From the NCBI GenBank assembly GCA_037076615.1, contig AP029158.1, positions 133,470 to 197,469 on the forward strand: a stretch of 64,000 nucleotides of DNA, read 5' to 3'. The position numbers were made by a program, and so were the translations under genes. Source of the stretch: Candidatus Parcubacteria bacterium (lineage in GTDB: Bacteria > Patescibacteriota > Patescibacteriia > Patescibacteriales > UBA12465). Under the pieces are notes generated by a model. That model searched no databases and was not told the DNA's origin. It saw only the letters and a program-made list of their open reading frames with translations. Each line of letters starts with the position of its first letter. Position 1 is the first letter of the stretch. Positions 6,560 through 35,382 of the stretch are shown one piece after another.

Positions 6560-6652
6560 GGAGAGATGGCCGAGCGGCTGAAGGCGGCAGGTTGCTAACT
6601 TGCTATAGGAGTTTACCTCCTATCCAGGGTTCGAATCCCTGTCTCTCCGCCA
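6560..6652 (+). tRNA. tRNA-Ser, anticodon GCU, long variable arm, CCA encoded
   Basis: GGAGAGA acceptor, anticodon stem GCAGG/CTTGC with loop TTGCTAA, long variable arm, T-arm CAGGGTTCGAATCCCTG, 3' end TCTCTCCGCCA. Confidence 0.9.
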
Positions 6653-6682
6653 AGACAATTTAGTATCGTGCAGACCCGAGTA
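6652..6682 (+). repeat. Left copy (T1) of the tRNA-Ser trailer repeat; putative attL region
   Basis: AAGACAATTTAGTATCGTGCAGACCCGAGTA. It shares the blocks TTTA-N-TAT and GACCCGAGTA with 24085-24142. It is 25/26 identical to the tRNA-Ser(UGA) 3' end plus trailer. Confidence 0.6.
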
Positions 6683-6764
6683 ATCGTGATTTAGTTGCGA
6701 CTCGACTGCCTAACAAATTGCTAACAAAAAACAACGATTTTCGAGTCGTTGTTTTTTGTTTAGT

Positions 6765-8087
6765 TTAATCTTCTATCAAGGTCAACTTTTTATCTTTATA
6801 CATTATTTTTGATCTCAGATTAGCTAGTAGCTCTCTTTTTTCAGATACTGCGCCTTCTTTTAATAAGTATTTAGCATAATTTCTTATATCCATTTCTTTG
6901 TCGGTTTTCAGTTTTTCCGTAGCACCCAGTACTGATCTTTGAAAGATATTAAATCGGGCTATTTCATCCTCTAATTTTTGCCTCATTCCTAACTCGTTAA
7001 TATTTACTTTGTCTAATATTTTAAGTAATTCAGCAATAAGCTCTTCTTCTCTGATATATTTATTTTTACAATTTCTATCCCTAGCTCTTGAGCATGAATA
7101 GTAGATATATCTGGCGTGTGTACCATCTTTAAGTTGTTTATATTTTTCTTCTGCTGATATGCCTGACCCGCAATGACCACAAGTAAATAGTTTAGTGAAG
7201 GCAAATTCTCTATTTTCTCTAACAATTTTATCTCTTTTTAATTGAGCTTGAGCTTTTTCAAATAAATCTTTATTTATTATCGGCTTATGTTTTCCCTGAT
7301 ACCAGTTACCGCTACCAACTGGTCTTTCAAATACTCCGTAATAAAAAGGGTTATCTAGTATTCTATATACTCCAGCCAGTGTTAATGGTTTATTTCCTCG
7401 AGTATAGAAGTTTAATTCATGTTTAAGATAGTTATATAATTTCCGACCACTATATTTTTCATAAGCTACTTTTTCAAACATTTTCTTGATAGCTGGCGCT
7501 CTTAATGGATCAATAATAACTTGGCATTTTTTATCCATTCTTTTTTGGTTTAAATAACCTAGCGGAGCAAGTCCAACCCATAAACCCATTTCTGCTCTAG
7601 TCCTTAGCCCTCGTCTAACATTAATTCCTCGATTATCATTTTCTAACTTGGCTTGCGATCCTAAAATCATAAGCAGGAATTTCTCATTTGGATTATTAGA
7701 AAATTTCTGACCATATGTCCTAATTTCTAGCAGGGCACCACTATCCATTAAATCCACTATTTTCCCTAAATCACCAGCATTACGAGATATGCGGTCAGGA
7801 GCCCAAGTCAAAATGGCGTTAAATTTACCCTCTTTGATTTCGTCCACAATCTCATTGAAGACTGGTCTTTGACCTGTTTCTTTGGCGCTGTGCGATTCTC
7901 GCTTTAATTCGACCACATCAAGGCCTTCTCGCTCGGCCAGCTCAAGCATCTCTTTTATTTGGCTATCTATTGATAAGACTTGCCTTTCCTCGCTTTCGGT
8001 CGATTTTCTTGCATAAAGGCAGTATTTTACCTTAATTTTGGTCTCTATTTTGCCTTGAGTCCCTACGGGCATTAATGTTGTATTCAT
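6765..8087 (-). CDS. Large serine recombinase (integrase)
   Basis: N-terminal resolvase-type catalytic motif YARKSTESEERQVLSIDSQ, a recombinase domain, a zinc-ribbon CGHCGS...YYSCS...C and a C-terminal coiled-coil region. Confidence 0.85.
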   Translation of the reverse strand: MNTTLMPVGTQGKIETKIKVKYCLYARKSTESEERQVLSIDSQIKEMLELAEREGLDVVELKRESHSAKETGQRPVFNEIVDEIKEGKFNAILTWAPDRISRNAGDLGKIVDLMDSGALLEIRTYGQKFSNNPNEKFLLMILGSQAKLENDNRGINVRRGLRTRAEMGLWVGLAPLGYLNQKRMDKKCQVIIDPLRAPAIKKMFEKVAYEKYSGRKLYNYLKHELNFYTRGNKPLTLAGVYRILDNPFYYGVFERPVGSGNWYQGKHKPIINKDLFEKAQAQLKRDKIVRENREFAFTKLFTCGHCGSGISAEEKYKQLKDGTHARYIYYSCSRARDRNCKNKYIREEELIAELLKILDKVNINELGMRQKLEDEIARFNIFQRSVLGATEKLKTDKEMDIRNYAKYLLKEGAVSEKRELLANLRSKIMYKDKKLTLIED

Positions 8088-8159
8088 ATACCAACATTAA
8101 TGACGCAACCGCCCTGAAGAGTCTAGGACGCCTCAAGTAGATAAACTGTTGATAACTTT

Positions 8160-8213
8160 ACACATGTTAACTTGACATAAATTTTTTATTAAGCTATAAT
8201 TAACACATGTTAA
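8160..8213 (+). promoter_or_regulatory. Consensus promoter of the hsdM operon flanked by two identical 11-mers
   Basis: ACACATGTTAA at 8160-8170 and 8203-8213. TTGACA (8172-8177), 17-nt spacer, TATAAT (8195-8200). Confidence 0.55.
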
Positions 8214-8238
8214 GTTTATTATAAATTATTTATAAAAT

Positions 8239-10035
8239 ATGTCTCTAGATAAATCCCAGTTTGTTACGCCAACACAACTAGCAAAAATGCTAGGTATTAC
8301 TCGTATTGCAATTCATCAAAAAATCAAAAAAGGTGAAATAAAAGCGGAAAATATTGGTGACCCTTCGAAGCCAACTTATGTTATACCTAAGTCTTCATTG
8401 TCTAAAGAGATTCAAGATCGCATACAGGTAGAACAAAAAAAGGCAACTGAGAGTATAGTTGGTAAGGACGTACAGCACCATGATTTAAATTTTGAAAAAG
8501 AGCTTTGGGCAGCAGCAGATAAACTTCGTGGAAATATTGATGTTTCTGAATACAAGAATATTGTTCTTGGTCTTTTATTTTTGAAATATATATCTGATGC
8601 TTTTTATACTCGCCGCAAAGAACTTGAAAGTCTTACTCGTGATAAAAATAATGAAAATTTTTATGTAGAAGATGATAAGGCTCGAGCACAAATCCTTGAA
8701 ACTAAAGATTTTTATAAAAGTGCTGGTGTATTTTATGTTCCTGAAAAATCAAGATGGGAATACTTGCAAACAAAAACCATGCAATCTGATATTGGTCAGG
8801 TGCTGGATAAGGCAATGGATTATATTGAAGAAGATAATCGAGTCGAACTTGAAGGCGTTCTTCCAAAAATTTATACACGTACAACCCTTGATTATTCTGT
8901 TATCGGTGAGCTTGTAAATATCTTTTCTCGTATTTCATTTGATCATAATTTTGATCGTGAAAAAGATATTCTTGGTCGTATCTACGAATACTTCCTTGGT
9001 CAGTTTGCGTCATCTGAAGGAAAACGTGGGGGCGAATTTTTTACTCCTCGATCGATTGTTAAATTACTCGTAGAAATTCTTGAGCCTTATGAAAATGCTC
9101 GCGTACTAGATCCAGCCTGCGGTAGCGGGGGGATGTTTGTGGCTATGGGTGAATATCTTCGTAACCATGGACAAGATTCATCAAAACTTGCTATCAACGG
9201 TCAAGAAAGTAATCAGACTACGCTTCGCCTCGCAAAGATGAATCTCGCTATTCGTGGACTTTCAGGAAAGATTGAATTAGGAAACACTTATTATCAAGAC
9301 AAATTTCCACATCTGCAGGCAGACTTCGTGATTGCAAATCCACCTTTTAACGGAGAATGGGAGCCGTCAAAACTTTCGGATAATGATCCGCGCATAACAC
9401 TCGGCACTCCACCAAGCGGAAACGCAAACTTTATGTGGGTGCAACATTTTGCACACCATCTTGCGCCAAATGGTTTGGCAGGATTTGTTATGCCAAATGG
9501 AGCACTTGCCGTATCAGGAAAAGAAGGAGAGCTTCGCAAAAAGCTTATTGAGGAAGATTTGGTTGAAGTGATTATTTCTTGCCCATCAAAGCTTTTCTAT
9601 AACGTATCACTTCCTGTTTCTCTTTGGTTTTTAGCAAAGAATAAAAAAGGTGATCGTTTTAGAAATCGTTCGGGCGAAACATTATTTATCGATGCTAGAG
9701 ATACATTTGAACAAATTTCTCGTAAGCAGGTTGTGTTTAACCCAGAACATATTGAGAAAATTTCAAATACTGTTCGTGCGTGGCGTGGAGAAAAAGATGC
9801 AGGCACATACGAAGATGTATCCGGATTCTGCAAGTCTGCATCTCTAGAAGAAATAAAGAAAAATGGATACGTTCTTACTCCTGGTCGTTATGTTGGCTTG
9901 GCTGATGTAGAAGACGATGGAATTTCTTTTGAAGAAAAAATGGAAAAACTTTCATCTGAATTGCGAGTGGCATTTGCAAAAGGTCGAGATTTGGAAAAAG
10001 AGATTGAGAAAAATCTTAAGGAACTCGGATTTTAA
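8239..10035 (+). CDS. hsdM: Type I restriction-modification methyltransferase subunit M with an N-terminal excisionase-type HTH extension
   Basis: HsdM_N-like LWAAADKLRGN..LGLLFLKYISD, motif I LDPACGSGGMF and motif IV ANPPFN. The first ~85 aa contain TPTQLAKMLGITRIAIHQKIKKGEI. Confidence 0.9.
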   Translation: MSLDKSQFVTPTQLAKMLGITRIAIHQKIKKGEIKAENIGDPSKPTYVIPKSSLSKEIQDRIQVEQKKATESIVGKDVQHHDLNFEKELWAAADKLRGNIDVSEYKNIVLGLLFLKYISDAFYTRRKELESLTRDKNNENFYVEDDKARAQILETKDFYKSAGVFYVPEKSRWEYLQTKTMQSDIGQVLDKAMDYIEEDNRVELEGVLPKIYTRTTLDYSVIGELVNIFSRISFDHNFDREKDILGRIYEYFLGQFASSEGKRGGEFFTPRSIVKLLVEILEPYENARVLDPACGSGGMFVAMGEYLRNHGQDSSKLAINGQESNQTTLRLAKMNLAIRGLSGKIELGNTYYQDKFPHLQADFVIANPPFNGEWEPSKLSDNDPRITLGTPPSGNANFMWVQHFAHHLAPNGLAGFVMPNGALAVSGKEGELRKKLIEEDLVEVIISCPSKLFYNVSLPVSLWFLAKNKKGDRFRNRSGETLFIDARDTFEQISRKQVVFNPEHIEKISNTVRAWRGEKDAGTYEDVSGFCKSASLEEIKKNGYVLTPGRYVGLADVEDDGISFEEKMEKLSSELRVAFAKGRDLEKEIEKNLKELGF

Positions 10036-10038
10036 TAT

Positions 10039-11151
10039 ATGAGTAAATTATTAGAACAAATAAATAGTGAACTTGAAACAAAGGAGACCGTGCCCTTGGC
10101 TAATCTTATGTCTCAAATTACCTCCAAGGTAAATAAAATACAGAAGTCTGACTACCTTAAGTTTGGCCTAGTGCCCATTTATGATCAGGGAGATAATGAT
10201 GTGTCGGGTTATTCTAATGATGTAAGTAATGCATATAATGGAAAGCTACCCGTTGTAATCTTTGGAGATCATACACTTAGATTGAAGAGAATCTCGTCGC
10301 CCTTCTTTTTAGGAGCAGACGGTAATCAACTTATTGAGCCTCTAGATGAGAATATTTTAGATAGGAATTATTTTTACTACCTACTTCTTTCTAAAAAACC
10401 AAGAAGTTATGGTTATGAAAGACATTTCAAATATTTAAAAGAAGTTGAGGTAAAAGTACCCAATCTTCCAACGCAAAAGAAAATAGCTGAAATTTTGAGT
10501 GCATATGATGCAAAAATTGAGAATAATAATCTAATTATCAAGAAACTTGAAGCAACCGCTCAAACATTGTTTGACGAGTGGTTTGTGAATTTTAAATTCC
10601 CTGGGTATGAGAAGGTTAAATTTGTTGATAGTGAAATGGGAGAAATTCCTGATGGATGGAATATAAAAAATGTGCTCGATGTAATCGAAAGAATTTCCCC
10701 TGGTAAGAAATACGATAATAAATCCGCATCACCTAGCGGCAGAGTTCCAATTCTTGATCAAGGAGCTTCTGGCTTTATTGGTTATCATGATGACGAACCT
10801 GGTGTTATTGCAAGCATTAATAACCCCGTTGTTATTTTCACTAACCATACTTGTTATTATCGTATTCTTACTGAGCCGTTTTCATGTATTCAAAATGTGC
10901 TTCCTTACGTTGGTAAAAACGGATATGACACATTCTTTGTGTATTTTCTCACAAAAGAAAAGATAAAAATGTCTGAGTACAAAGGTCACTGGCCAGAGTT
11001 TGAACAACAAGTTTTTGTTATGCCCATTCCAGAAATTGCTAATCAATTCTCGAAGATGGCAAAAGTATTTATTGAAAAAATTGTTTCTTGCGAAAAAGAA
11101 AATGTTTCCTTGAAATCTCAGCGGGATCTATTATTAGCTAAATTAATTTAA
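10039..11151 (+). CDS. hsdS: Type I R-M specificity subunit S
   Basis: Two variable halves are separated by a conserved helical spacer LPTQKKIAEILSAYDAKIENNNLIIKKLEATAQTLFDEWFV. There is a C-terminal helix SLKSQRDLLLAKLI. The gene starts 3 nt after hsdM. Confidence 0.8.
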   Translation: MSKLLEQINSELETKETVPLANLMSQITSKVNKIQKSDYLKFGLVPIYDQGDNDVSGYSNDVSNAYNGKLPVVIFGDHTLRLKRISSPFFLGADGNQLIEPLDENILDRNYFYYLLLSKKPRSYGYERHFKYLKEVEVKVPNLPTQKKIAEILSAYDAKIENNNLIIKKLEATAQTLFDEWFVNFKFPGYEKVKFVDSEMGEIPDGWNIKNVLDVIERISPGKKYDNKSASPSGRVPILDQGASGFIGYHDDEPGVIASINNPVVIFTNHTCYYRILTEPFSCIQNVLPYVGKNGYDTFFVYFLTKEKIKMSEYKGHWPEFEQQVFVMPIPEIANQFSKMAKVFIEKIVSCEKENVSLKSQRDLLLAKLI

Positions 11152-11154
11152 TAT

Positions 11155-12003
11155 ATGGATCCATTGATAACAAAAGAATTAGTAGAGCTTGGCTCACAGA
11201 CAGCATCAAAACCAGTCGCTAGTTTTTCAGAATTAATAGCTTTAAAGTTCTTTGGTAAATCAATAGCAAAACTTAAAGCAGAAGCGGAAGTTGAAGGAGA
11301 CAAAGTATTGTCTAGATGGGAGGAGGTTGAGAAACCTCTCTGGCTTCAAGCAGAAGCCGTAAAGATGAATAGACAATATGATAATTTTGGAAATACACTC
11401 AAGAAAGCATCAAAATACATTACAGAGGAAAATACCATCTCAAATGAAAATGATTTATTTTGGGGGTTATTAGAGCATTCAAAGGAAATTACCAATGAAG
11501 ATGTTCAAGATCTAATTGCAAAGATTATAGCTGGTGAGTACAATGCACCTGAAACATACTCAATGAGTACTCTTCAGATCTTGAAATCTTTAGGTAAAAA
11601 AGATTTAGAAAAATTTACATTTTTTGCAAGTTTTTACTTGCCAGAGCATGGTTTTTTCAAAGACTTTTTTAATATGCAGGAATCCTCTCTATTGGTACGC
11701 ACTAAACTAGGGATTAATTATGCAGACTTTTTAGAATTACAAAATCTCGGCCTGATTCAAAGTGGAGAATATACAATCTCAGTTTCGGTTAAAAAAGATG
11801 CTATATTTTCCTTGGATTATTATGGGGATAGGTTTTTATTCAAAGCTACTAAAGACTTCGATAAATGGAATTTCCCAGAGTGTTACGCATTAACTAAGGC
11901 AGGAAAAGAAATCCTTCAGCATTTAAATATAAGTAAATCTAGCGATTTTAAAGAGTGGTTAGTTGAAGATTTAAAGACTAAAGGTTTTGAACCACAAAAT
12001 TAG
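11155..12003 (+). CDS. Unknown protein embedded between hsdS and hsdR (possibly DUF2806/Abi-alpha-like; from memory only)
   Basis: 282-aa ORF with 3-nt and 5-nt junctions to its neighbours. The segment DLIAKIIAGEYNAPETYSMSTLQILKSLGKKDLEKFTFF resembles DUF2806-type proteins as I recall them. Confidence 0.45.
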   Translation: MDPLITKELVELGSQTASKPVASFSELIALKFFGKSIAKLKAEAEVEGDKVLSRWEEVEKPLWLQAEAVKMNRQYDNFGNTLKKASKYITEENTISNENDLFWGLLEHSKEITNEDVQDLIAKIIAGEYNAPETYSMSTLQILKSLGKKDLEKFTFFASFYLPEHGFFKDFFNMQESSLLVRTKLGINYADFLELQNLGLIQSGEYTISVSVKKDAIFSLDYYGDRFLFKATKDFDKWNFPECYALTKAGKEILQHLNISKSSDFKEWLVEDLKTKGFEPQN

Positions 12004-12008
12004 ATAAT

Positions 12009-15032: not shown

Positions 15033-15035
15033 AAT

Positions 15036-17362: not shown

Positions 17363-17370
17363 TTAGTAAT

Positions 17371-17631
17371 ATGAGAAAATTTTATATAGACAACAGGATA
17401 GATTGGCTTAGTACCATATTTTATATTATAGGTATGCCATTTAGATTAATCGATTGGTTAATAAAAAAGATGTTCAAGTATTTAAAAATTATAATTTCAG
17501 ATATTTTCCACGGTGTATATAAAAAACTTATAGCTATTATTGTGTTTGTTATTGTAATTTTTATTATGCTTTATATTTCTAACCTTACTCATGTTCAGGA
17601 GTTAAAAAGTTTACCTTTAATTGTTAAGTAA
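17371..17631 (+). CDS. Small two-helix membrane protein (86 aa)
   Basis: Hydrophobic segments WLSTIFYIIGMPF and LIAIIVFVIVIFIMLYI. Starts 8 nt after the NTase gene. Confidence 0.45.
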   Translation: MRKFYIDNRIDWLSTIFYIIGMPFRLIDWLIKKMFKYLKIIISDIFHGVYKKLIAIIVFVIVIFIMLYISNLTHVQELKSLPLIVK

Positions 17632-17675
17632 ATAAAGGTCGAATAAAAAATACAAAAATTATTAACTAAAAATAT

Positions 17676-17888
17676 ATGGATAAGCCAAAGTATATTCGCA
17701 ATGCTGGCAAACCATGGACTCCTCAGGAAGAGAAAAAATTGTTTCAACTTGCTAAAGTCAATACTCCAACCAGAGTTATGGGTCTTGAGCTTGGAAGACC
17801 AGTAGGAGGAATTCAAAGCAAGGCTAGTCAATTAGGAATTAGTTTGAAGCCAACTAACCAATCCCCCTATAATCGCAAAACCAAATAG
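17676..17888 (+). CDS. Small SANT/Myb-like HTH protein (70 aa)
   Basis: KPWTPQEEKKLFQLAKVNTPTRVMGLELGRPVGGIQSKASQLGI resembles a single Myb-type repeat. Confidence 0.4.
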   Translation: MDKPKYIRNAGKPWTPQEEKKLFQLAKVNTPTRVMGLELGRPVGGIQSKASQLGISLKPTNQSPYNRKTK

Positions 17889-17906
17889 TAAATTTAATAG
17901 AAATTT

Positions 17907-17935
17907 TAAAATACGCCCAAATGGGCGTATTTTTG
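17907..17935 (+). terminator. Intrinsic terminator ending the long R-M/CBASS gene string
   Basis: ATACGCCC-AAAT-GGGCGTAT (17911-17930) followed by TTTTT. Confidence 0.65.
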
Positions 17936-17999
17936 TAATTGTAGACAAACTGTAGGTAACTTTTCTTTACTTTTAGGCCTGTTTAAGCTATATTTTAAG

Positions 18000-18147
18000 T
18001 GCGAAACCACAATTGAATATTCCGAAAGAAGCATGAAAAATGCTGTCATTTGTATACAGGAACGGGCACTCCGACCCTATACAAGTGGCAGTCTTTCGGG
18101 ACACCAATTGTGGTTTCGCAACCAAGGTCGGGTGTCCGTTTTTGTTT
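18000..18147 (+). promoter_or_regulatory. Riboswitch-like structured 5' leader with a terminator-type expression platform
   Basis: Perfect 16-bp long-range helix 18000-18015 / 18105-18120 encloses nested helices 18022-18029/18092-18099, 18030-18034/18040-18044 and 18050-18056/18078-18084. Alternative pairings end at a T-run (18139-18143). Confidence 0.5.
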
Positions 18148-18175
18148 AGTGAAATTAAATATTAATATAAAAAAT

Positions 18176-18844
18176 ATGGATAATATTATTGGATTTATAC
18201 TTTTTATTTCTTTCCTATCCTTTTTTGTCGGGCTAATAAAGCCCAGCATTTTTAGCAGAGTTTTTAAAAATAAAAAGGAGATAAATCGCAAATTTATACT
18301 AAAAGTTTTTGGCTCTAGCACTTTCGCCCTATTATTAATACTAGGAATGGTATCTGAAAACAAGTCTGATAATATTGATCCAATAGTTAATAATTCGGCT
18401 GAGGTGTTTGTTGAAGAAAAGGCTGAAAGTTTTGTAGAAGAAATTCAAGAAGATGAGGCACTGTCTCAGGATGAGCTTGTTAGTGCCAATCAAGCAGAGC
18501 CTGTAACGACTAAAATCGTGACTGAAAACAAAGAGGAGGTCGCCCATGTCACCAATCAGCCCGCCAAAGAGATAAATAATGCAAAAACAGATAACGCTCC
18601 TGGTACAGAAATAATTAAGACAGACCTAACTCCACCCACAGAAGAAAGTGAGCCAGTTCAGCCAACTAAAGCTGTAGTTAGCGGGAAGTTTTATACCTCA
18701 TCTCATGGTAGTGCCAAGTACTATTATCCTGCAAGTTGTTCTGACTGGCAAAATTTAAGTCAAAGCTATTTACGAGAGTTTGATTCTTTAGAATCTTTAT
18801 TAAAAAAATATCCGTCTAGGACCTTAAGTCCTACGTGTAATTAA
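18176..18844 (+). CDS. Membrane-anchored protein with an acidic linker and a small Cys-containing C-terminal domain
   Basis: Start moved to MDNIIGF because the ORF-track N-terminus reads through the structured leader. Two N-terminal TM helices. C-terminus is GKFYTSSHGSAKYYYPASCSDW...SPTC. Confidence 0.5.
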   Translation: MDNIIGFILFISFLSFFVGLIKPSIFSRVFKNKKEINRKFILKVFGSSTFALLLILGMVSENKSDNIDPIVNNSAEVFVEEKAESFVEEIQEDEALSQDELVSANQAEPVTTKIVTENKEEVAHVTNQPAKEINNAKTDNAPGTEIIKTDLTPPTEESEPVQPTKAVVSGKFYTSSHGSAKYYYPASCSDWQNLSQSYLREFDSLESLLKKYPSRTLSPTCN

Positions 18845-18853
18845 TAAAAATAT

Positions 18854-19057
18854 ATGAAAAAGAAAACACCCGCCGCTTTATTAGCACTTTTTCTAGGAGG
18901 ATTTGGAATTCATAAGTTCTACCTAGGCAAAACCACTCCAGGAGTTTTTTACCTTTTATTTTGCTGGACATTTATACCGGCGATTTTGGCATTCATCGAT
19001 TTTATAATAATATTATCGACCAACAAAGAAGCATTTAATAAAAAGTATAACGTTTAG
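18854..19057 (+). CDS. TM2 domain protein (67 aa)
   Basis: LALFLGGFGIHKFYLGKTTPGVFYLLFCWTFIP matches the TM2-domain pattern. Confidence 0.6.
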   Translation: MKKKTPAALLALFLGGFGIHKFYLGKTTPGVFYLLFCWTFIPAILAFIDFIIILSTNKEAFNKKYNV

Positions 19058-19509
19058 TTCGGCTGATTATCAATAGGATAGTGACCGTATTTTTGCTTAT
19101 ACATGTTAAATGCTTCATAAATTGATTTACTCTGTTGCTTGTTAAAACCTTTACTTTTTGTAGTCCCGCATTGGTCACATTTTTCTCCGATTTTAACCTC
19201 TTTTTTCGGAGGCTGAAAAATGACTGGCATTTTAGGGTAGTATCTCGAATCGTTGTTAGCAAGGAAATACCTAATTGACGGCCCGTCTCCTTCGTTTATT
19301 TTCTTATATAAAGCCATTTCTGTAATATCAATCAATTCTTTTCTGCCAAAATGCAAAGCATTGTCTACTTTCTCTTTGAAATTAGCATTGTTTTTTATCC
19401 AGCGATATATTGTTGCCTTGCTAATCCCAACTTTTTTACAGGCATAGCTTATAAAAGGTCTTTCTCTAAGAATTTCCAGAAATTTAGATTTTTCTAGATT
19501 AGTTCTCAT
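19054..19509 (-). CDS. HTH DNA-binding protein (terminase-small-subunit-like N-terminus)
   Basis: ACKKVGISKATIYRWIKNN helix-turn-helix. Overlaps the upstream ParB-MTase gene by 11 nt. Confidence 0.45.
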   Translation of the reverse strand: MRTNLEKSKFLEILRERPFISYACKKVGISKATIYRWIKNNANFKEKVDNALHFGRKELIDITEMALYKKINEGDGPSIRYFLANNDSRYYPKMPVIFQPPKKEVKIGEKCDQCGTTKSKGFNKQQSKSIYEAFNMYKQKYGHYPIDNQPN

Positions 19510-20833
19510 ATATTTTCACTCTTTTTTTGCCCGTCATTTTTTCCCAGCGATTAAGTATTACCTCTGCATAGACAGGTGATTTTTCCATCAGAAAACAACG
19601 GCGACCTATTTTATTAGAAGCAATAAGAGTGCTTCCGCTTCCACCAAAAGGCTCAAGTACTAACTGCCCCCGAGTCGTTAGTACTTTTATGTATGGGATA
19701 AGTATTTCTAGTGGCTTAGTGCCAAAGATTATGCCTTGTCCTGATGATTGCTCGTCGGCCGCTTTAAACTCTATAAAATCTGTAGGGCAATACTTTTTAC
19801 CTTTGCCATATGATTCCCAGTGAGGTTTGCCAGAAATAGCAAACAGAGCAGTCTCGTATTCATTTTTTACTAACTCATCTTCTGGCTCTTCATTAGCCTC
19901 AGTAAAATTTTCACTGGTGCCAACCATAGCGATGTCATACTTTGAAAAGAATTTATGCTTTGAAGCATAACCCTGGTTTCTGTTAGGTAAATGCCAGACT
20001 AACATATTCCTTACTTTCCAATATTTTTCCATCTCGCCCCAAATGATGCGAATATTTTTCCAATTCTCATAAACAATAATTGAAAAGTTTTCTGCTTGTA
20101 CTTTAGAAACATTGGCCATCCATAGCTCTGTAAAGTTGTCGGGCAAAGAATCCGTCTCCAAATAGCGCCTATTTTTCTTAGCGCCAAATCCAGTGGTTGC
20201 CTCGCCGTGCCTAGATTTACCGTGCAGATAATCCAGAATATATGGTGGGTCAGTCATGACCATATCGATCTTGTGATCTCCGACCAGTCTTAGCATGTCA
20301 GCTTCGATGGTACTATCTCCGCACATTAGCCGTGAACCGTCCAGATCATAGACATCGCCTTTCTTGACGCTTATCTCCTCAATATTTAGCTTTTTCAATT
20401 CTTTCTCTAAATCGAAGATTTCGGTATTGTCCTCATCCTCGAAGATATCATCCAATTCTTCGGAATCGAAGCCAATGTCCTGCAAGAACGCTTCATCAAA
20501 TTCGGCAAGTAGACCGTAGTCGAATTCGCCAAGATTCTTATTGAGCCTGAGATTTAGTTCTTTTTCCTTTTCTAAATCAGGAATGTTTATATAGCAGACT
20601 GGCACAGTCTCGAAGCCTAGTTCCTTGGCCATCTGCCAGCGAAAGTGTCCGCCGATTATGACATTCATCCGCTCCGGAGCGGAATTGACTACGAAGGGAT
20701 CGACGAGGCCGAAGCGTCGTAGGCTCTCCTTGAGCTGTTCACTTGCTTCCTTATCCCACTTGCGGGGATTGTATTCAGCGGGTCTTAACTCGCCGATGGG
20801 CAGGTAAGTCACCTGCAAATCTTTTCTTTCCAT
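19499..20833 (-). CDS. ParB-like nuclease domain fused to a DNA (N4/N6) methyltransferase
   Basis: ParB N-terminal LPIGELRPAEYNPRKW, catalytic motif TDPPY and SAM motif EPFGGSGSTLIAS. Confidence 0.8.
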   Translation of the reverse strand: MERKDLQVTYLPIGELRPAEYNPRKWDKEASEQLKESLRRFGLVDPFVVNSAPERMNVIIGGHFRWQMAKELGFETVPVCYINIPDLEKEKELNLRLNKNLGEFDYGLLAEFDEAFLQDIGFDSEELDDIFEDEDNTEIFDLEKELKKLNIEEISVKKGDVYDLDGSRLMCGDSTIEADMLRLVGDHKIDMVMTDPPYILDYLHGKSRHGEATTGFGAKKNRRYLETDSLPDNFTELWMANVSKVQAENFSIIVYENWKNIRIIWGEMEKYWKVRNMLVWHLPNRNQGYASKHKFFSKYDIAMVGTSENFTEANEEPEDELVKNEYETALFAISGKPHWESYGKGKKYCPTDFIEFKAADEQSSGQGIIFGTKPLEILIPYIKVLTTRGQLVLEPFGGSGSTLIASNKIGRRCFLMEKSPVYAEVILNRWEKMTGKKRVKIYEN

Positions 20834-21105
20834 ATTTTTAGTCGGGGTATTTTTGTAATAAAAAAGTCCAAGAAAAACTCAAAAATACCCCTATTAGAAA
20901 ATAGGAATTCTTGAACTTTTCTCGGACTTTCCTTTAGGGGTGCATTTTATTGCTACCTGGTCAGGATTACCGAACGGTAATATCTATGATATTGGTCGTG
21001 TGGCGGTTTAAAACGTTTAGAGCTTATAGCTGTTTCACGTCCTCGTTTTTGCCTGTTTCCGTGAGGCTCACGAGCACCCGCCCGGGGGGAATAAAGAACT
21101 CAGAA

Positions 21106-21133
21106 ACTATATTCATCTTACCACGGATGTCAA
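21106..21133 (-). promoter_or_regulatory. Near-consensus promoter for the ParB-MTase transcript (~265-nt leader)
   Basis: On the minus strand: TTGACA (plus coordinates 21128-21133), 16-nt spacer, TATAGT (21106-21111). Confidence 0.45.
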
Positions 21134-21292
21134 TATTGGTTAATAATAACTGTTTTAGGATGGGATTGTAAGTTGTAAATAACCTTGATTTTACTGGGTT
21201 TTTGTGATATTTTAAATTGATACATAAATTCTTGACCCTGTCATAGCATATCCCTAAAAATGATTATGACATGTGGATAAAGCACCTCATCT

Positions 21293-22057
21293 ATGAAGAT
21301 AATTAAAAAGATTATCGCAAAGAATAGAATAAAGAGAGAGATGAATGACGTTCTGGCTATAAAGCAGCTGGTGTTAGCTCATCTGCATGAATTAATAAAG
21401 CGTCGCAAAGAGATTGATGAAAATCTTTTTGAAGTGACAGCCTTTTTATTAGATGAAATAGGAGATGCTCTTGCCGCTATTATAACTTTAAAAAAGGATC
21501 ATTTGAAAAGTAGTATCATGATTTCTAGATATATATTAGAGGACTGTGTTAATTTGCAATATATCTATAAAGAAGATTCAGAAAAAAGAGCTTTAAATTA
21601 CAGAGCTTTTTCGGCAAAGGAATTATTAAATAGAGCAGAGATGTATGAGGGGGATGATGACAGAATTAAAAAAGAAATTCCAAGAATTAAAGAAAGGGCT
21701 GAAAAATATTCTCCTTCTGGAAAAAATTCTAATCATTGGGATGGTTTGTCTACTAAAAAAATAATGTCCGATTTAAATTTAGAAGGTATATATCAAATTT
21801 GGTATGTTAGAATGTCTTCTTACATCCACCCACAGTATAGGGGAAGCAAAATAAGATCTAGTGATAAGGGTGAGTATATAGAATTTTTGAAGAAAATGGT
21901 GTTTAAAGATTTAAATCTTCCAATACTCGAATCTTTAAGAGCGGTAAATAAGAAATTTGATTTGCTTGAAGGCGCAGTTATCATTAGTAATTATCCAAAA
22001 GAAAAAGCTACCTTAGTTTTTAGTATCAATGAGCGCAGAGAGCCAAAAAGGCCATGA
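21293..22057 (+). CDS. Hypothetical protein, possible HEPN-type (AbiV/DUF5677-like) abortive-infection protein
   Basis: All-helical 254-aa ORF. Candidate Rx4-6H motif RMSSYIH, and SRYILEDCVNLQYIY resembles DUF5677-type proteins (from memory). Confidence 0.35.
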   Translation: MKIIKKIIAKNRIKREMNDVLAIKQLVLAHLHELIKRRKEIDENLFEVTAFLLDEIGDALAAIITLKKDHLKSSIMISRYILEDCVNLQYIYKEDSEKRALNYRAFSAKELLNRAEMYEGDDDRIKKEIPRIKERAEKYSPSGKNSNHWDGLSTKKIMSDLNLEGIYQIWYVRMSSYIHPQYRGSKIRSSDKGEYIEFLKKMVFKDLNLPILESLRAVNKKFDLLEGAVIISNYPKEKATLVFSINERREPKRP

Positions 22058-22073
22058 AAAAAATTCATTAAAT

Positions 22074-22101
22074 TTGACTTTTCATTAATTTATGCTATAA
22101 T
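22074..22101 (+). promoter_or_regulatory. Near-consensus promoter
   Basis: TTGACT (22074-22079), 16-nt spacer, TATAAT (22096-22101). Confidence 0.55.
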
Positions 22102-22107
22102 ATAATT

Positions 22108-22300
22108 GTACTTAACAAACATAACTCTAGCACTGAGTCTAAAAAGTGCCATTTATTTCTCCTGTTTTATACAGGTAGGCAAGCTGGGAAATCTGTGGCA
22201 AGCTAAATGGAATAAGTGACTGATCGCTGAAGGCGGTTGGGAGATTTCAATCTAAGAGATAGCAATATCTTTTGATGAAATCTCTTAGCCGCTTTTTTTT
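22108..22300 (+). ncRNA. About 190-nt non-coding transcript or attenuator leader ending in a strong intrinsic terminator
   Basis: No ORF longer than about 11 codons found by manual scan of the plus strand. Hairpins GCACT..AGTGC and CCTGT..ACAGG. Terminator arms GCGGTTGGGAGATTTCA (22233-22249) and TGAAATCTCTTAGCCGC (22276-22292) followed by T8. Confidence 0.5.
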
Positions 22301-22332
22301 GTTTGTTGAGCTAGAAAGAGAGGTGATAAAAT

Positions 22333-22860
22333 ATGATAAAATTAAATAGTATTGAAGAAATGATGCAAGAGCATTGCTCTAGAATTTATTGGGAAATAGA
22401 TGATATTGATGAAAATGTTATGTTTATGGTAGCTAAAATTAACGAACAGAATTTATCTGCAGATTTAGAGAAGATGGCACGAGACCTTTTGGCTGATTTC
22501 ATTGGAGCCACTACAATTCTTAGAAGTGCTGCTATAGAGCTGGGTGAAAAGTTCGCTTGGTTTATGTTTGACCCTGGAGTAGAAAGAATAAAATTGCCAG
22601 AACTAGACACTGGAGATATTGCTCAGCTAATAAGCGATTTACTAAATGAGCAAGCAGTTAAATTTAATGACTTTATTAAGGTTCTTGAGAAAAAAAGAAA
22701 AAACAAGGAAATTGATAGTGGCATGATTGTCTTATTCTGTGAATCAGGTGGAAACATCATGAGAGATAAAGGAGAGGTCATTAACTCCTTAAGATTTTTA
22801 GCTAATAATTATAATAAATACCAATATGAAATTAACTCAAAAAATACAACAAGCAATTAA
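22333..22860 (+). CDS. Hypothetical acidic helical protein (175 aa)
   Basis: Preceded by AGAGAGGTGA 8 nt upstream, the strongest Shine-Dalgarno-like site among the starts I checked. The 3' end overlaps the next gene by 35 nt. Confidence 0.55.
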   Translation: MIKLNSIEEMMQEHCSRIYWEIDDIDENVMFMVAKINEQNLSADLEKMARDLLADFIGATTILRSAAIELGEKFAWFMFDPGVERIKLPELDTGDIAQLISDLLNEQAVKFNDFIKVLEKKRKNKEIDSGMIVLFCESGGNIMRDKGEVINSLRFLANNYNKYQYEINSKNTTSN

Positions 22861-23407
22861 TCTAGCTAGTCGCCTGCATTTAGGCCAAGTTAGAAAGGGC
22901 GATTCAGGTTTGCCTTATATCAGCCACCCTTTTTCGGTAGCCTGGATATTAAGTAATTATACTGAAGATGAGGATGTGATTATCGGTGGACTGCTTCACG
23001 ACGTTTTAGAGGACGTCAAAGGTTATTACTATGATGATCTGGTTAGGGATTTCGGCGAAAGAGTGGCTCAGATAGTTAAGGGTGTAAGCGAGGATAAAGA
23101 TCCTAATATTGAAAGTGATGAAAGGGCTACTTGGGAAGAACGAAAGTCAAAGTACTTGGCCGGCTTAGAGCACGATAGCGATGAAGCTCTAATGGTTTGC
23201 GCGGCTGATAAAATTCACAATCTTCAGTCCATGATAGACGCTTATCAAGAGAAAGGCGAAGAACTTTGGGCAAATTTTAACTCTCCAAAAGAGAAGAAGC
23301 TCTGGCTTTATTATGAGATTTTAAAGTTTATGAAGGGAAAGCTTAATAATCCAATAGTTGATGAGCTAGAAGAGGTTTATGGTCGGGCAGAGAAAATATT
23401 GTTATAA
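22826..23407 (+). CDS. RelA/SpoT-type HD-domain hydrolase (small alarmone hydrolase-like)
   Basis: LHLGQVRKGDSGLPYISHPFSVAWIL...LLHDVLEDV is the HD(p)ppGpp-hydrolase signature. No synthetase domain is present. Confidence 0.75.
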   Translation: MKLTQKIQQAINLASRLHLGQVRKGDSGLPYISHPFSVAWILSNYTEDEDVIIGGLLHDVLEDVKGYYYDDLVRDFGERVAQIVKGVSEDKDPNIESDERATWEERKSKYLAGLEHDSDEALMVCAADKIHNLQSMIDAYQEKGEELWANFNSPKEKKLWLYYEILKFMKGKLNNPIVDELEEVYGRAEKILL

Positions 23408-23426
23408 TAAAATAAATATCAAATTT

Positions 23427-23855
23427 ATGACTAAAACAATAAAAATTTGGCTCTTAAAACTTTTTCCTTTAATCATTATTTATCTGTTATTTTTAATTAA
23501 ATTTATTGGTAACAGTGATTATGAATCTTTAATTGTTTTGCTGGCAGCGCTACCTTTAACTATTTATATTTTTACTGAAAATATAAAGCTAAAGAAAAAT
23601 TTACAATATTTACTTTATTTTTTTATTGTAGGAATTATAATTTATTGGGTATTTGCATCTTATGGTTTAATATGGGGGATCTTTAATGGACAATTTATGT
23701 TCTCTGGCTTCTCCTGTTTTTTTACTGGCTGTTACGGAGAAACAGGTTGGGGTTTATTTACTCAAAGCGCATTATTTACTGTTGATTTAAAGGTATTACT
23801 TTATTTAGCTGTTATTTTTCTTGCAATTAAAAATAGAAGATTAGTTCGTAATTAA
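23427..23855 (+). CDS. Multi-pass membrane protein (142 aa from MTKTIKIW)
   Basis: Four hydrophobic segments. Start moved from the ORF-track 23379 to the first ATG past the overlap with the SAH gene end. Confidence 0.45.
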   Translation: MTKTIKIWLLKLFPLIIIYLLFLIKFIGNSDYESLIVLLAALPLTIYIFTENIKLKKNLQYLLYFFIVGIIIYWVFASYGLIWGIFNGQFMFSGFSCFFTGCYGETGWGLFTQSALFTVDLKVLLYLAVIFLAIKNRRLVRN

Positions 23856-23869
23856 GGCGCACAGATTAT

Positions 23870-24025
23870 ATGGTTAGCATGAAGGAATTTAAAAAAAGAT
23901 TAGGAAATACGGCAAATAATTATAGCGAAGAAGAGTTGATAAAATTAAGGGAAGATATGGACGGACTAGCTAACTTTTTGCTAGATGAATATGTTGATAA
24001 ATTAAAGGGCGGTAAAAAGGTTTAA
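23870..24025 (+). CDS. Small helical protein (51 aa), below the ORF-track cutoff
   Basis: Hand translation MVSMKEFKKRLGNTANNYSEEELIKLREDMDGLANFLLDEYVDKLKGGKKV. It is the last ORF before the island's right repeat. Confidence 0.3.
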   Translation: MVSMKEFKKRLGNTANNYSEEELIKLREDMDGLANFLLDEYVDKLKGGKKV

Positions 24026-24084
24026 TTCGCCTTGTATTTGTATAACGCTGATTATGTCTATGTTTGTCAAATAATACATAAAAT

Positions 24085-24142
24085 AAGATTTATTATAGTG
24101 TCTCATTTGTCTCATTTTTATTCTCAGACCCCGACCCGAGTA
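24085..24142 (+). repeat. Right copy (T2) of the tRNA-Ser trailer repeat; putative attR region
   Basis: AAGATTTATTAT..CTCATTTGTCT..GACCCGAGTA is co-linear with the trailers at 6652-6682 and 34750-34807. Contains a tandem TGTCTCATT x2 (24099-24116). Confidence 0.55.
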
Positions 24143-24185
24143 CTTAAAATCAGTTTTAGAATTATCTTTTAAAACCCCTTATAAT

Positions 24186-24425
24186 ATTGCTATAGGGTGG
24201 TACTTAACCCGACTGGCCCGCATCTAAAAATACAACCCGAAAGGGTTGTATTTTTAGATGTGTGTAACAATGATGAGAACCTTTAGGTTCGACTGCCGAG
24301 GATAACGAGCGAAATGAAAACTTGGTTTTCATTTTTGAGCGACGCAGGCAGAAAAGGGCGGCTTGGCCGCCCTGTTATCCCTTGCTCTCCGCCCATAAAA
24401 AAAACACCCTTCCGGGTGTTCTTTT
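24186..24425 (+). ncRNA. Candidate structured non-coding RNA (class unknown)
   Basis: TATAAT at 24180-24185 and no ORF longer than 15 codons. Perfect 18-bp hairpin with a GAAA loop (24221-24260). Further hairpins AAATGAAAAC/GTTTTCATTT and GGGCGGC/GCCGCCC. Terminator AACACCC-TTCC-GGGTGTT (24403-24420). Confidence 0.35.
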
Positions 24426-34660: not shown

Positions 34661-34815
<155 letters not shown>

Positions 34816-35377: not shown

Positions 35378-35382
35378 CCACT

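What the first reader, a model, noticed from the sequence alone, without database searches (positions are those of the whole stretch)
6643..24153. Island of about 17.5 kb next to tRNA-Ser(GCU), bracketed by copies of a tRNA-Ser trailer, with an unoccupied third copy after tRNA-Ser(UGA)
Three copies of one trailer sequence are visible.
- T1 (left edge): directly after the CCA of tRNA-Ser(GCU) comes AGACAATTTAGTATCGTGCAGACCCGAGTA (to 6682). A hairpin and the stop codon of a large serine recombinase gene follow.
- T2 (right edge): at 24085-24142 the blocks AAGA, TTTATTAT, CTCATTTGTCT and GACCCGAGTA recur in the same order and orientation. GACCCGAGTA is an exact 10-bp direct repeat (6673-6682 and 24133-24142).
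- T3 (unoccupied): the trailer of tRNA-Ser(UGA) carries all blocks uninterrupted. It is 25/26 identical to the GCU locus over CTCTCCGCCAAGACAATTTA-N-TATCG. It then has CTCATTTGTCT and GACCCGAGTGCTTTAAAA, versus GACCCGAGTACTTAAAA at the island's right edge.

A single 9-11-mer match would be expected by chance in 64 kb. The co-linear set of blocks at exactly these places is not. Spot G+C counts on single 60-nt lines give about 25-42% inside and 45-48% outside.

Inference: T1 and T2 are attL and attR of a serine-recombinase element, and T3 resembles the empty site.
Basis: partly seen in the sequence, partly recalled or inferred. Interest (0 to 1): 0.7.

Follow-up and report, generated by a model that had tools for sequence, protein, structure and literature searches.

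The report
Serine-recombinase defence island in tRNA-Ser
A 17.6-kb mobile island carrying anti-phage genes sits at the very end of a serine tRNA gene, put there by a serine-type integrase.

Summary

- **Edges.** Four island-free metagenome contigs of the same species (99.6-100% identical flanks) join window 6650 directly to 24218, with a 4-bp overlap, CCGC. The island is therefore 6651-24217 (17,567 bp; GC 35.4% versus 42.8% in both flanks).
- **Native trailer.** The real trailer of tRNA-Ser(GCU) is a terminator hairpin at 24221-24262. It has no T-blocks.
- **T1** is the island's left end. It lies next to a 440-aa large serine recombinase gene.
- **T2** lies inside the island. It is a right-end module conserved across relatives, with GACCCGAGT 65-67 nt before the recombinase arm.
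- **T3** is not an empty site. It is the left end of a degraded second element at tRNA-Ser(UGA).
- **Family.** The recombinase has at least 517 metagenome relatives. In 41 of the 42 fetched loci that have a tRNA gene upstream of the recombinase, that gene is tRNA-Ser (any isoacceptor). Named hosts are mostly CPR/Patescibacteria.
- **Cargo.** Type I restriction-modification, a CBASS pair (patatin effector plus cyclase), a ParB-methylase and some phage-type genes.

The searched literature states that tRNA targeting by serine integrases was unreported or unproven. I rate this a new variant of a known kind.

The parts
6560..6652 (+). tRNA-Ser(GCU), the integration target. The gene stays intact; its last two bases (CA of CCA) come from the island.
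   Evidence: ARAGORN and Rfam. Island-free contigs match the window up to 6650. Promoter-like TTGACA-17-TATATT at 6497-6525.
6647..6650 (+). CCGC, the left copy of the 4-bp overlap that contains the crossover. The central dinucleotide is inferred to be CC (6647-6648).
   Evidence: Empty-site comparison. Dyad analysis of the reconstructed attP by eye, on the sequences.
6651..6682 (+). Island left end (T1): the P' arm CAAGACAATTTAGTATCG plus the GACCCGAGTA motif. This is the 'short form' of the family's left end.
   Evidence: Absent from empty sites. The same consensus follows 76 tRNA-Ser genes in the fetched loci, next to recombinase genes.
6722..6762 (.). Hairpin between the left end and the recombinase stop codon; likely a two-way terminator.
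   Evidence: Fold energy -18.5 kcal/mol, z -6.4.
6765..8087 (-). Large serine recombinase, 440 aa.
   Evidence: Pfam Resolvase, Recombinase and Zn_ribbon_recom. Aligns to SPbeta SprA/YokA, with YARKS on YLRRS. At least 517 metagenome relatives.
8239..15032 (+). Type I restriction-modification operon: hsdM 8239-10035, hsdS 10039-11151, DUF2806 gene 11155-12003, hsdR 12009-15032.
   Evidence: Pfam, PADLOC.
15036..17362 (+). CBASS pair: patatin phospholipase effector (15036-15977) and CD-NTase with AGS-C domain (15974-17362).
   Evidence: Pfam. PADLOC Effector 1.2e-105 and Cyclase 4.1e-134.
17371..19057 (+). Small genes of unknown role: 86 aa, 70 aa (D5-like regulator HTH), 264 aa, and 67 aa (phage family phrog_10680).
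   Evidence: PHROGs; no Pfam hits.
19054..20833 (-). HTH protein weakly like small terminase subunits (19054-19509) and a ParB-N-domain N6/N4 DNA methylase (19499-20833).
   Evidence: Pfam. PHROGs small terminase, E 1.7e-7. Each gene has tblastn hits in 34 family loci.
20950..23855 (+). Further cargo: 73 aa, DUF5677 (21293-22057), 175 aa, HD phosphohydrolase (22826-23407), 158 aa.
   Evidence: Pfam, PHROGs.
24085..24198 (+). Right-end module containing T2: TGTCTCATT twice (24099-24116), GACCCGAGTA (24133-24142) and the box AAAACCCCTTATAAT (24178-24192).
   Evidence: Lies inside the island. GACCCGAGT sits 65-67 nt before the P arm in 5 of 13 right ends, with degenerate copies at the same place in others. 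Nearly identical in L104. TGTCTCATTTGTCTCATTT is exact in L104 and L118.
24199..24217 (+). P arm of the recombination site, GGTACTTAACCCGACTGGC. It matches the tRNA T-arm/acceptor at 12 of 23 positions in register.
   Evidence: Unique in the window. Found at 13 right ends. The register comparison is by eye, on the sequences.
24218..24221 (+). CCGC, the right copy of the overlap. Host DNA resumes here.
24221..24262 (+). Native trailer of tRNA-Ser(GCU): a strong terminator hairpin, displaced 17.6 kb by the island.
   Evidence: Directly follows the tRNA in L003, L004, L005 and L007. Fold energy -26.3 kcal/mol, z -10.7.
34661..34750 (+). tRNA-Ser(UGA), a second target of the same element family.
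34751..36288 (+). T3 (34751-34815, the 'long form' left end) plus low-GC DNA behind it: DUF7670 gene, 54-aa gene, cupin gene and a ParA fragment. Read as a recombinase-less relic of a second element. The right limit is uncertain.
   Evidence: T3 is 96.6% identical to L072's left-end trailer, and the DUF7670 gene is 82.6% identical to its L072 copy, which lies between that trailer and a recombinase gene. Positions 35246-35393 are 82% identical to DNA behind the trailers of L023 and L058. GC is 32.4%. No recombinase or P arm lies downstream.

Best explanation
Window 6651-24217 is an integrative genomic island whose cargo is mainly anti-phage defence.

**How it got there.** A large serine recombinase (LSR), encoded at the island's left end, inserted it at the extreme 3' end of tRNA-Ser(GCU).

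**Shown**
- The exact junctions.
- A 4-bp overlap, CCGC.
- An intact tRNA after insertion.
- The recombinase domains.
- The family-wide link to tRNA-Ser genes.

**Inferred mechanism**
1. The excised circle carries an attP of about 45-50 bp: GGTACTTAACCCGACTGGC-CC-GCCAAGACAATTTAGTATCG. It is an imperfect inverted repeat (TACTTAA versus TACTAAA, and TGGC versus GCCA) around a central CC.
2. Recombinase dimers bind attP and attB. The attB is the tRNA T-arm and acceptor end plus a loosely A-rich trailer.
3. Both sites are cut with a 2-nt stagger at CC, the half-sites rotate, and the strands are rejoined.
4. attL keeps the whole tRNA. The element supplies the rest of the CCA, a new trailer and a terminator.
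5. attR joins the tRNA-like P arm to the displaced native trailer.

**The three repeats**
- T1 is the element's left end.
- T2 is a conserved module inside the right end.
- T3 is the left end of a second, decayed element at tRNA-Ser(UGA).

**The family.** It has a recombinase of 67-91% amino-acid identity among the 80 best metagenome loci, conserved ends and freely varying cargo. It is widespread in CPR/Patescibacteria metagenomes and uses any tRNA-Ser isoacceptor.
For: **Junctions**
- Four independent island-free contigs (L003, L004, L005, L007; different samples and assemblers; 97.7-100% identical on the left flank and 99.6-100% on the right) join 6650 to 24218 with the CCGC overlap. L001 carries the identical island.
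- Composition breaks at these points.

**Recombinase**
- It has all three LSR domains.
- Its closest solved structure is SPbeta SprA. The Y-x-R-x-S motif is aligned.

**Family link to tRNA-Ser**
- The 20-mer CTCTCCGCCAAGACAATTTA occurs in 43 loci of species-representative genomes, mostly Patescibacteria MAGs. Twelve of them have a full-length recombinase homologue (72-87% identity) and two more a fragment, 0.1-5 kb downstream on the opposite strand.
- At least 517 metagenome relatives were found. In the 80 fetched loci, the nearest upstream tRNA is tRNA-Ser in 41 of 42 cases: gct 15, cga 10, gga 8, tga 6, act 2.
- 76 tRNA-Ser genes carry the family's left-end consensus. 17 other tRNA-Ser genes in the same loci lacked it at my match threshold. 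Most have unrelated trailers; three or four look like diverged or truncated family ends, and two carry the second AACATCG-type end.

**Right ends**
- The 13 right ends share the P arm, and five have GACCCGAGT at a fixed 65-67 nt before it.
- TGTCTCATTTGTCTCATTT is exact in L104 and L118.

**T3**
- The DNA after T3 is colinear with the left end of L072, which still has its recombinase.

**Cargo**
- Identified.
Against: - No excised circle or attP junction of this particular element was found. The IMG/VR pattern scan found nothing.
- Recombination is untested, so the central dinucleotide and site limits rest on symmetry arguments.
- No recombination directionality factor was identified.
- For tRNA-Ser(UGA), no strain with a plain native trailer was found. 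The relic reading of T3 is therefore inference from homology and low GC.
- The conserved end modules extend far beyond a normal LSR site of about 50 bp. My model does not explain them.
- The host assignment to CPR is indirect. It rests on the labels of other MAGs that carry the motif, and 12 of the 43 loci carry a 'Gammaproteobacteria' label that I did not check.
Confidence: 0.82

Rival explanations
1. The tRNA-Ser(GCU) gene originally had a T3-like trailer. The island split it into T1 (attL) and T2 (attR), with GACCCGAGTA as the duplicated core, and T3 shows the unoccupied state.
For: The blocks are colinear and non-random. A recombinase gene lies next to T1.
Against: - Empty sites of the same species have a completely different trailer and lack every T-block.
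- T2 lies 75 bp inside the island.
- Serine recombinases leave 2-bp repeats, not 10-bp ones (PMC5704250).
- T3-type sequence is linked to recombinase genes and element cargo elsewhere.
Confidence: 0.02
2. The T-blocks are a generic, functional host trailer of tRNA-Ser genes in these bacteria (a processing signal or small RNA). The elements merely copy it or land next to it.
For: - The sequence follows 76 tRNA-Ser genes across many lineages.
- About a dozen loci with at least 4 kb of downstream sequence show no recombinase.
- The T3 long form folds into a hairpin: -19.1 kcal/mol, z -3.4.
Against: - The same tRNA gene exists with and without it in one species.
- 17 tRNA-Ser genes in the same loci lacked it at my match threshold, most with unrelated trailers.
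- It also occurs fused to P arms with no tRNA at all: L159, L072, L118, L163, L062.
- Its motifs recur at element right ends.
- No consensus RNA structure or covariation was found, and there is no Rfam hit.
Confidence: 0.06
3. The island is a phage satellite (PICI-like). It would be packaged by a helper phage using its own small-terminase-like protein, and the repeated end motifs would be the packaging or regulatory site. This adds to the main model rather than replacing it.
For: - The 151-aa HTH protein matches small-terminase families (E 1.7e-7), and other phage-type small genes are present.
- The small-terminase-like gene and the ParB-methylase gene each have hits in 34 family loci.
- 34 relatives lie in IMG/VR viral contigs, one of them 55.9 kb with an attP-type junction.
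- The size of 17.6 kb is typical for satellites (general knowledge).
Against: - The terminase match covers only the HTH part.
- No primase/replicase, capsid or other packaging genes were found.
- Complete family members L104, L074 and L121 lack the gene pair, so it is not core.
Confidence: 0.12

Closest known systems
Large serine recombinase (serine integrase) elements such as SPbeta (SprA), A118, Bxb1, phiC31 and TP901-1
   Same: - Three-domain recombinase with an N-terminal catalytic serine motif.
- Recombinase gene next to the attachment site.
- Tiny overlap between junctions.
- attP is an imperfect inverted repeat around a non-palindromic central dinucleotide.
   Different: - The target is the 3' end of a tRNA gene rather than a protein-coding gene.
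- One clade uses all tRNA-Ser isoacceptors, whose trailers are unrelated.
- About 150 bp on the right and 30-60 bp on the left of the site are conserved, with repeated GACCCGAGT and TGTCTCATT motifs.
- Tandem arrays and recombinase-less mini copies are common.
Classical tRNA-gene islands mobilised by tyrosine integrases (the Islander/TIGER type)
   Same: - They sit at the 3' end of a tRNA gene and keep it functional.
- Cargo is variable, and the site is a hotspot with several element families.
   Different: - No tyrosine integrase is present.
- There is no duplicated tRNA fragment at the far end, only CCGC.
- The element restores only the CA of CCA and the trailer.
SCC elements of staphylococci (Ccr serine recombinases at the 3' end of rlmH/orfX); comparison from general knowledge
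   Same: - Non-conjugative cargo cassettes moved by large serine recombinases.
- They insert into the 3' end of one conserved housekeeping gene without inactivating it.
- They form tandem composites and leave recombinase-less remnants.
   Different: - One recombinase gene instead of a ccrAB pair (or ccrC).
- The target is an RNA gene.
- Host phylum and cargo differ.
Defence islands carrying type I R-M and type I CBASS
   Same: Gene content: hsdMSR, plus a patatin effector with a CD-NTase.
   Different: None in kind. Only the vehicle and the host are unusual.

Membership tests
Large serine recombinase integrative element | Recombinase with resolvase catalytic domain, recombinase domain and zinc-ribbon domain | tested here: met
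   PF00239 1.1e-20, PF07508 9.4e-13, PF13408 6.5e-10
Large serine recombinase integrative element | N-terminal catalytic serine motif (Y-x-R-x-S) | tested here: met
   YARKS (residues 25-29) aligns with YLRRS of SprA, chain 9dxh_A
Large serine recombinase integrative element | Junctions share only a very short overlap with the empty site (2-bp crossover) | tested here: met
   The overlap is 4 bp, CCGC. This is compatible with a 2-bp crossover, but the exact dinucleotide is not determined.
Large serine recombinase integrative element | attP of about 40-60 bp with imperfect dyad symmetry | tested here: met
   Reconstructed attP: symmetric inner TGGC/GCCA and outer TACT.AA around CC. The analysis is by eye, without statistics.
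Large serine recombinase integrative element | Recombinase alone catalyses attP x attB; excision needs a directionality factor | not testable with these tools
No directionality factor was recognised among the small island genes.
Tyrosine-integrase tRNA island | Tyrosine integrase gene in the island | tested here: not met
   No Phage_integrase hit in any of the 18 island proteins scanned
Tyrosine-integrase tRNA island | Displaced tRNA 3' fragment (direct repeat of about 15-50 bp or more) at the far end | tested here: not met
   The right junction shares only CCGC with the tRNA end. The P arm matches the tRNA at 12 of 23 positions.
CBASS | CD-NTase cyclase next to an effector | tested here: met
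   PADLOC Cyclase 4.1e-134 and phospholipase Effector 1.2e-105; the genes overlap by 4 bp
Type I restriction-modification | hsdM, hsdS and hsdR in one operon | tested here: met
   An extra DUF2806 gene lies between hsdS and hsdR.
Phage satellite (PICI-like) | Replication module plus packaging-redirection genes, and helper dependence | tested here: inconclusive
   Only a weak small-terminase-like HTH match. No primase/replicase was found. Helper dependence cannot be tested here.

The most novel reading that the evidence does not exclude
This recombinase clade is a CPR-wide family of tRNA-specific serine integrases. Close members use tRNA-Ser, and more distant ones sit beside tRNA-Asp, Asn, Gln or Glu.

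Its attachment region may not be a simple 50-bp site. It carries conserved, directly repeated accessory motifs:
- GACCCGAGT at about -84, -10, +27 and, in the long form, +55 from the crossover;
- TGTCTCATT twice.

These could bind the recombinase or a partner protein and control direction, or allow repeated insertion next to resident copies. That would explain the tandem arrays, the mini elements and the orphan ends such as T3. It would be an arm-site-like layer on a serine integrase, in a phylum that lacks genetic tools.
Probability: 0.2. Interest if true: 0.75.

Novelty: new variant of a known kind. Interest (0 to 1): 0.55.

Why it matters
[quoted passage not shown] A later survey found only 14 of 297 cases and asked for experimental proof (PMC7192596). 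Here one clade shows the behaviour systematically, with an exact empty-site comparison, across hundreds of metagenome loci.

**A possible tool.** The hosts appear to be CPR/Patescibacteria, which are hard to manipulate genetically. A one-protein integrase whose target lies in every tRNA-Ser gene would be an obvious candidate for making tools.

**Horizontal gene transfer.** The family also shows how defence systems (type I R-M, CBASS) travel between these streamlined genomes.

**A caution for sequence readers.** Conserved element ends can look like a duplicated host trailer.

Tried and rejected
- **Conserved RNA hairpin in the long-form trailer.** RNAalifold gave no consensus structure. My hand-drawn structure paired 68.5% of cells, a value that 31 of 500 shuffles reached; the inner helix paired only 54%. 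Rejected. The long form is better described as two direct copies of a GACCCGAGTG-like motif about 29 nt apart.
- **Known RNA family at the trailers.** Rfam found only the three tRNAs.
- **Outward promoter in the right-end box (CCCTTATAAT).** The consensus scan did not call it, and the number of promoter-like sites equals the shuffle expectation. Unsupported.
- **Structured RNA across T2 to the right end.** z = 0.01. Rejected.
- **Free attP junction in IMG/VR.** No match to ACTTAACCCGANNNNNCCGCCAAGACAA. attP-type junctions were seen only in diverged relatives.
- **Intact right end for the T3 element.** No second P arm in the window at up to 3 mismatches.
- **Small-terminase-like gene plus ParB-methylase as a core of the family.** Complete elements L104, L074 and L121 lack them.
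- **Literature.** No report was found of serine-recombinase elements at tRNA-Ser in CPR. This covers only the held library.
Full report
**1. Checking the observation**

ARAGORN and Rfam place tRNA-Arg(GCG) at 5854-5928 (minus strand), tRNA-Ser(GCU) at 6560-6652 and tRNA-Ser(UGA) at 34661-34750.
- T1: ...CCA|AGACAATTTAGTATCGTGCAGACCCGAGTA, ending at 6682.
- T2: 24085-24142, with AAGA, TTTATTAT, CTCATTTGTCT and GACCCGAGTA in that order.
- T3: 34751-34815, with all blocks uninterrupted.

The 9-mer GACCCGAGT occurs exactly three times in the window, always on the + strand and always at these places. The similarity is therefore real.

The region between T1 and T2 is compositionally foreign:
- GC is 35.4%, against 42.8% in each flank.
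- Tetranucleotide distance to the rest of the window is 0.26-0.35 inside, against 0.11-0.16 outside.

**2. The true boundaries**

I looked up the exact sequence of the left-flank 174-aa protein (5944-6468) in public assemblies. This returned contigs of the same species from several samples. BLAST of the window against them gave three states.

- L001 carries the identical island.
- L003, L004, L005 and L007 come from four different samples and three assembly sources. They match the window up to 6650 and resume at 24218, and locus coordinates overlap by 4 bases. The empty site reads ...TCCCTGTCTCTCCGC|ATCTAAAAATACAACCCGAAAGGGTTGTATTTTTAGAT.
- L002, L006, L009 and L010 break at the same nucleotide but continue with AACATCGTGCTAGCACGAGGTAG, a hairpin and then mutually different DNA. 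This is a second element family, so the site is a hotspot.

Consequences:
- The inserted DNA is 6651-24217 (17,567 bp), flanked by CCGC at 6647-6650 and 24218-24221.
- The native trailer of tRNA-Ser(GCU) is a strong terminator hairpin at 24221-24262 (-26.3 kcal/mol, z -10.7). It contains none of the T-blocks and no encoded CCA.
- T1 is therefore island DNA, and T2 lies 75 bp inside the island.

**3. Content of the island**

| Coordinates | Strand | Product |
|---|---|---|
| 6765-8087 | - | Large serine recombinase (LSR) with Resolvase, Recombinase and Zn-ribbon domains |
| 8239-15032 | + | Type I R-M: hsdM, hsdS, an inserted DUF2806 gene, hsdR |
| 15036-17362 | + | CBASS pair: patatin effector and CD-NTase with AGS-C domain |
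| 17371-19057 | + | Small genes; one with a D5-like regulator HTH, one in phage family phrog_10680 |
| 19054-19509 | - | 151-aa HTH protein weakly like small terminases |
| 19499-20833 | - | ParB-domain DNA methylase |
| 20950-23855 | + | DUF5677, an HD hydrolase and three unknowns |

- The recombinase's closest solved relative is SPbeta SprA (YokA). The alignment places YARKS on YLRRS.
- No tyrosine integrase, transposase, conjugation gene or capsid gene was found.

**4. What the "trailer" is**

A scan of one genome per species for CTCTCCGCCAAGACAATTTA found 43 loci. Most are Patescibacteria/CPR MAGs: Falkow-, Pacei-, Doudna-, Magasaniki- and Saccharibacteria. Twelve are labelled uncultured Gammaproteobacteria, which I did not verify.

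After the shared start the sequence comes in two forms:
- A short form, like T1: CAAGACAATTTAGTATCGG-ATA-GACCCGAGT.
- A long form, like T3: CAAGACAATTTATTATCGG-AGTCAACCCATTTGTCTATGACGAATGTGC-GACCCGAGTGC.

Twelve loci, of either form, have a full-length homologue of the window's recombinase (72-87% identity) 0.1-5 kb downstream on the opposite strand. Two more have a fragment.

Searching metagenomes with the recombinase gave at least 517 relatives, of which 80 loci were fetched (67-91% identity).
- In the 42 loci with a tRNA gene upstream of the recombinase stop, it is tRNA-Ser in 41: gct 15, cga 10, gga 8, tga 6, act 2. The exception is one tRNA-Asp.
- Over all loci, 76 tRNA-Ser genes carry the family's left-end consensus: (CCA)-[AGT]GACAAnTTAnTATCGG ... 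GACCCGAGTGC, then a terminator, then the recombinase gene.
- 17 other tRNA-Ser genes lacked that consensus at my match threshold. Most have unrelated trailers, often without CCA. Three or four look like diverged or truncated family ends, and two carry the second AACATCG-type end.

The T1/T3 sequence is therefore the left end of a mobile-element family, not a host trailer.

**5. T2 is a conserved right-end module**

A search for the sequence just left of the right junction (GGTACTTAACCCGA, a few bases, then CCGC) found 13 right ends.
- In five of them (window, L104, L137, L049, L062), GACCCGAGT with at most one mismatch lies 65-67 nt before this arm.
- Degenerate versions occupy the same place in L034, L121, L095, L028 and L074.
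- L104 sits at tRNA-Ser(GGA) and its recombinase is only 77% identical. Its right end is nevertheless almost identical to T2, including TTTATTATAGTGTCTCATTTGTCTCATTT.
- TGTCTCATTTGTCTCATTT is also exact in L118, whose recombinase is 72% identical.
- Related double repeats occur in L137, L121, L095 and L163.

At this protein divergence, neutral DNA would not keep exact 19-mers. The module is presumably functional, but I could not determine its role.

**6. The recombination site**

Joining the island's two ends gives ...GGTACTTAACCCGACTGGC-CC-GCCAAGACAATTTAGTATCG....
- By eye, TACTTAA and TACTAAA (the reverse complement of TTTAGTA) lie symmetrically, and TGGC/GCCA flank a central CC.
- That CC falls inside the CCGC overlap. 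This is what an LSR site with a 2-bp crossover should look like.
- The left (P) arm matches the tRNA's T-arm/acceptor at 12 of 23 positions in register.
- Host sequences to the right of the junction are only loosely similar to one another: A-rich, and often CAAA....
- Junctions of P arm fused to left end, with no tRNA, occur in L159 (a 55.9-kb viral contig), L072, L118/L120, L163 and L062. They are free attP sites or tandem arrays.
- Mini copies of 0.05-1.1 kb, with both ends but no recombinase, occur in L028, L034, L049, L050 and L062.

**7. T3 is not an empty site**

- No recombinase and no P arm lie downstream of T3.
- T3 is 96.6% identical to L072's left-end trailer. The DUF7670 gene that follows T3 (34887-35213) is 82.6% identical to the gene that follows it in L072, where a recombinase gene comes next.
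- Positions 35246-35393 are 82% identical to DNA about 230 nt behind the trailers of L023 and L058.
- The segment 34751-36288 has GC 32.4% and contains a 47-aa ParA fragment.
- In the same species, L012 has a different island starting CAAGACAATTTAGTGTCGGATAGACCC after this tRNA, and L019 ends in the T1-type variant.
- Many assemblies break exactly at CTCTCCGC(CA).

I conclude, by inference, that T3 is the left end of a decayed second element. I did not find a strain with a plain native trailer at this tRNA.

**8. Family backbone**

- Complete members are 4.8 kb (L121), 6.3 kb (L074), 12 kb (L104) and 17.6 kb (this one). Their cargo is unrelated apart from frequent type I R-M genes: hsdM in 23 loci, hsdR in 12.
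- The small-terminase-like gene and the ParB-methylase gene each have hits in 34 loci, but the three smaller complete elements lack both.
- Only the recombinase and the end modules are constant.
- In IMG/VR, relatives of 67% identity or more again sit at tRNA-Ser. More distant ones (43-60%) sit beside tRNA-Asp, Asn, Gln or Glu.

**9. Comparison with what is known**

- The TIGER survey found t(m)RNA use in 14 of 297 serine-integrase islands. [quoted passage not shown]
- A review of mobilizable elements describes serine-recombinase sites as lying within genes and flanked by very short repeats (PMC5704250).
- A paper on horizontal transfer in Patescibacteria reports islands, including one with a type I R-M system. 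Its text does not mention integrases or tRNA genes (PMC12455944).
- I found no description of this family, but the library is incomplete.
- In behaviour, the closest analogue from general knowledge is the staphylococcal SCC system. That is cargo cassettes moved by serine recombinases into the 3' end of one housekeeping gene, with tandem composites and remnants.

**10. Verdict**

The finding is a real, precisely delimited island and an ordinary defence cargo. Its vehicle is uncommon. I rate it a new variant of a known kind, with moderate interest. The unexplained part is the function of the repeated GACCCGAGT and TGTCTCATT motifs at both ends.

Noticed in passing
L002:1-469, L006:1-419, L009:1-212, L010:1-144 (the same point as window 6650); also L048:1326 and L061:3419: A second kind of insert uses the same nucleotide of tRNA-Ser(GCU). 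It reads CTCTCCGC|AACATCGTGCTAGCACGAGGTAG plus a hairpin, followed by at least three different cargos. The same start follows tRNA-Ser(gct) in two unrelated CPR MAG loci. Its recombinase is unknown; L002 has an HTH_17/MerR-like 59-aa gene nearby.
   Followed up: partly
window 24377-24393: ATCCCTTGCTCTCCGCC closely resembles the 3' end of tRNA-Ser(GCU), ATCCCTGTCTCTCCGCC (pattern expectation 0.06). It lies about 160 bp right of the island in DNA also present in island-free contigs. It may be a fossil displaced tRNA fragment from an older integration.
   Followed up: partly
window 6647-6652 versus L003-L007: The empty-site tRNA-Ser(GCU) gene does not encode CCA (...CTCTCCGCAT). The island supplies it (...CTCTCCGCCA). 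Other family members start ATTGACAA and do not supply CCA.
   Followed up: partly
L165, L174, L177, L181, L184 (IMG/VR); L108: More distant relatives of the recombinase (43-60% identity, and one at 76%) have tRNA-Asp, Asn, Gln or Glu genes in or near the upstream flank. This suggests a wider clade of serine integrases that target tRNA genes. Their junctions were not examined.
   Followed up: no
L028:5594-6375, L034:6738-7370, L049:92-1240, L050:405-465, L062:3158-4260: Very short copies (about 0.05-1.1 kb) have a family left end and right end but no recombinase. They are either deletion remnants or non-autonomous elements moved in trans.
   Followed up: partly
L062:~4055-4080, L072:~640-680, L118:~8720-8760, L163:~7268-7300, L159:~7200-7260 (coordinates in the reverse-complemented copies used in my scripts): A right arm is fused directly to a left end with no tRNA between them. 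These are tandem arrays or free attP sites. In L072 and L118 the copy next to the tRNA lacks a recombinase and the distal copy has one.
   Followed up: partly
window 11155-12003: A DUF2806 gene (282 aa) is inserted between hsdS and hsdR of the type I R-M operon. It has no PADLOC hit and no homologue in the other family loci.
   Followed up: no
window 19054-20833: A small-terminase-like HTH gene and a ParB-domain methylase gene lie side by side here. Each has hits in 34 of the family loci (methylase up to 74% identity), usually several kb from the recombinase. This could be a packaging or anti-restriction module.
   Followed up: partly
L013-L018, L146, L149-L152 (window about 34722-34752): Many independent assemblies end or begin exactly at the 3' end of tRNA-Ser(UGA). 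This fits strain-level variation there, or the repeat shared with the tRNA-Ser(GCU) island confusing assemblers.
   Followed up: partly
window 35800-36020: A 47-aa ParA/Mrp-like fragment sits in the low-GC stretch after T3. It looks like a pseudogene, consistent with a decaying insert.
   Followed up: no
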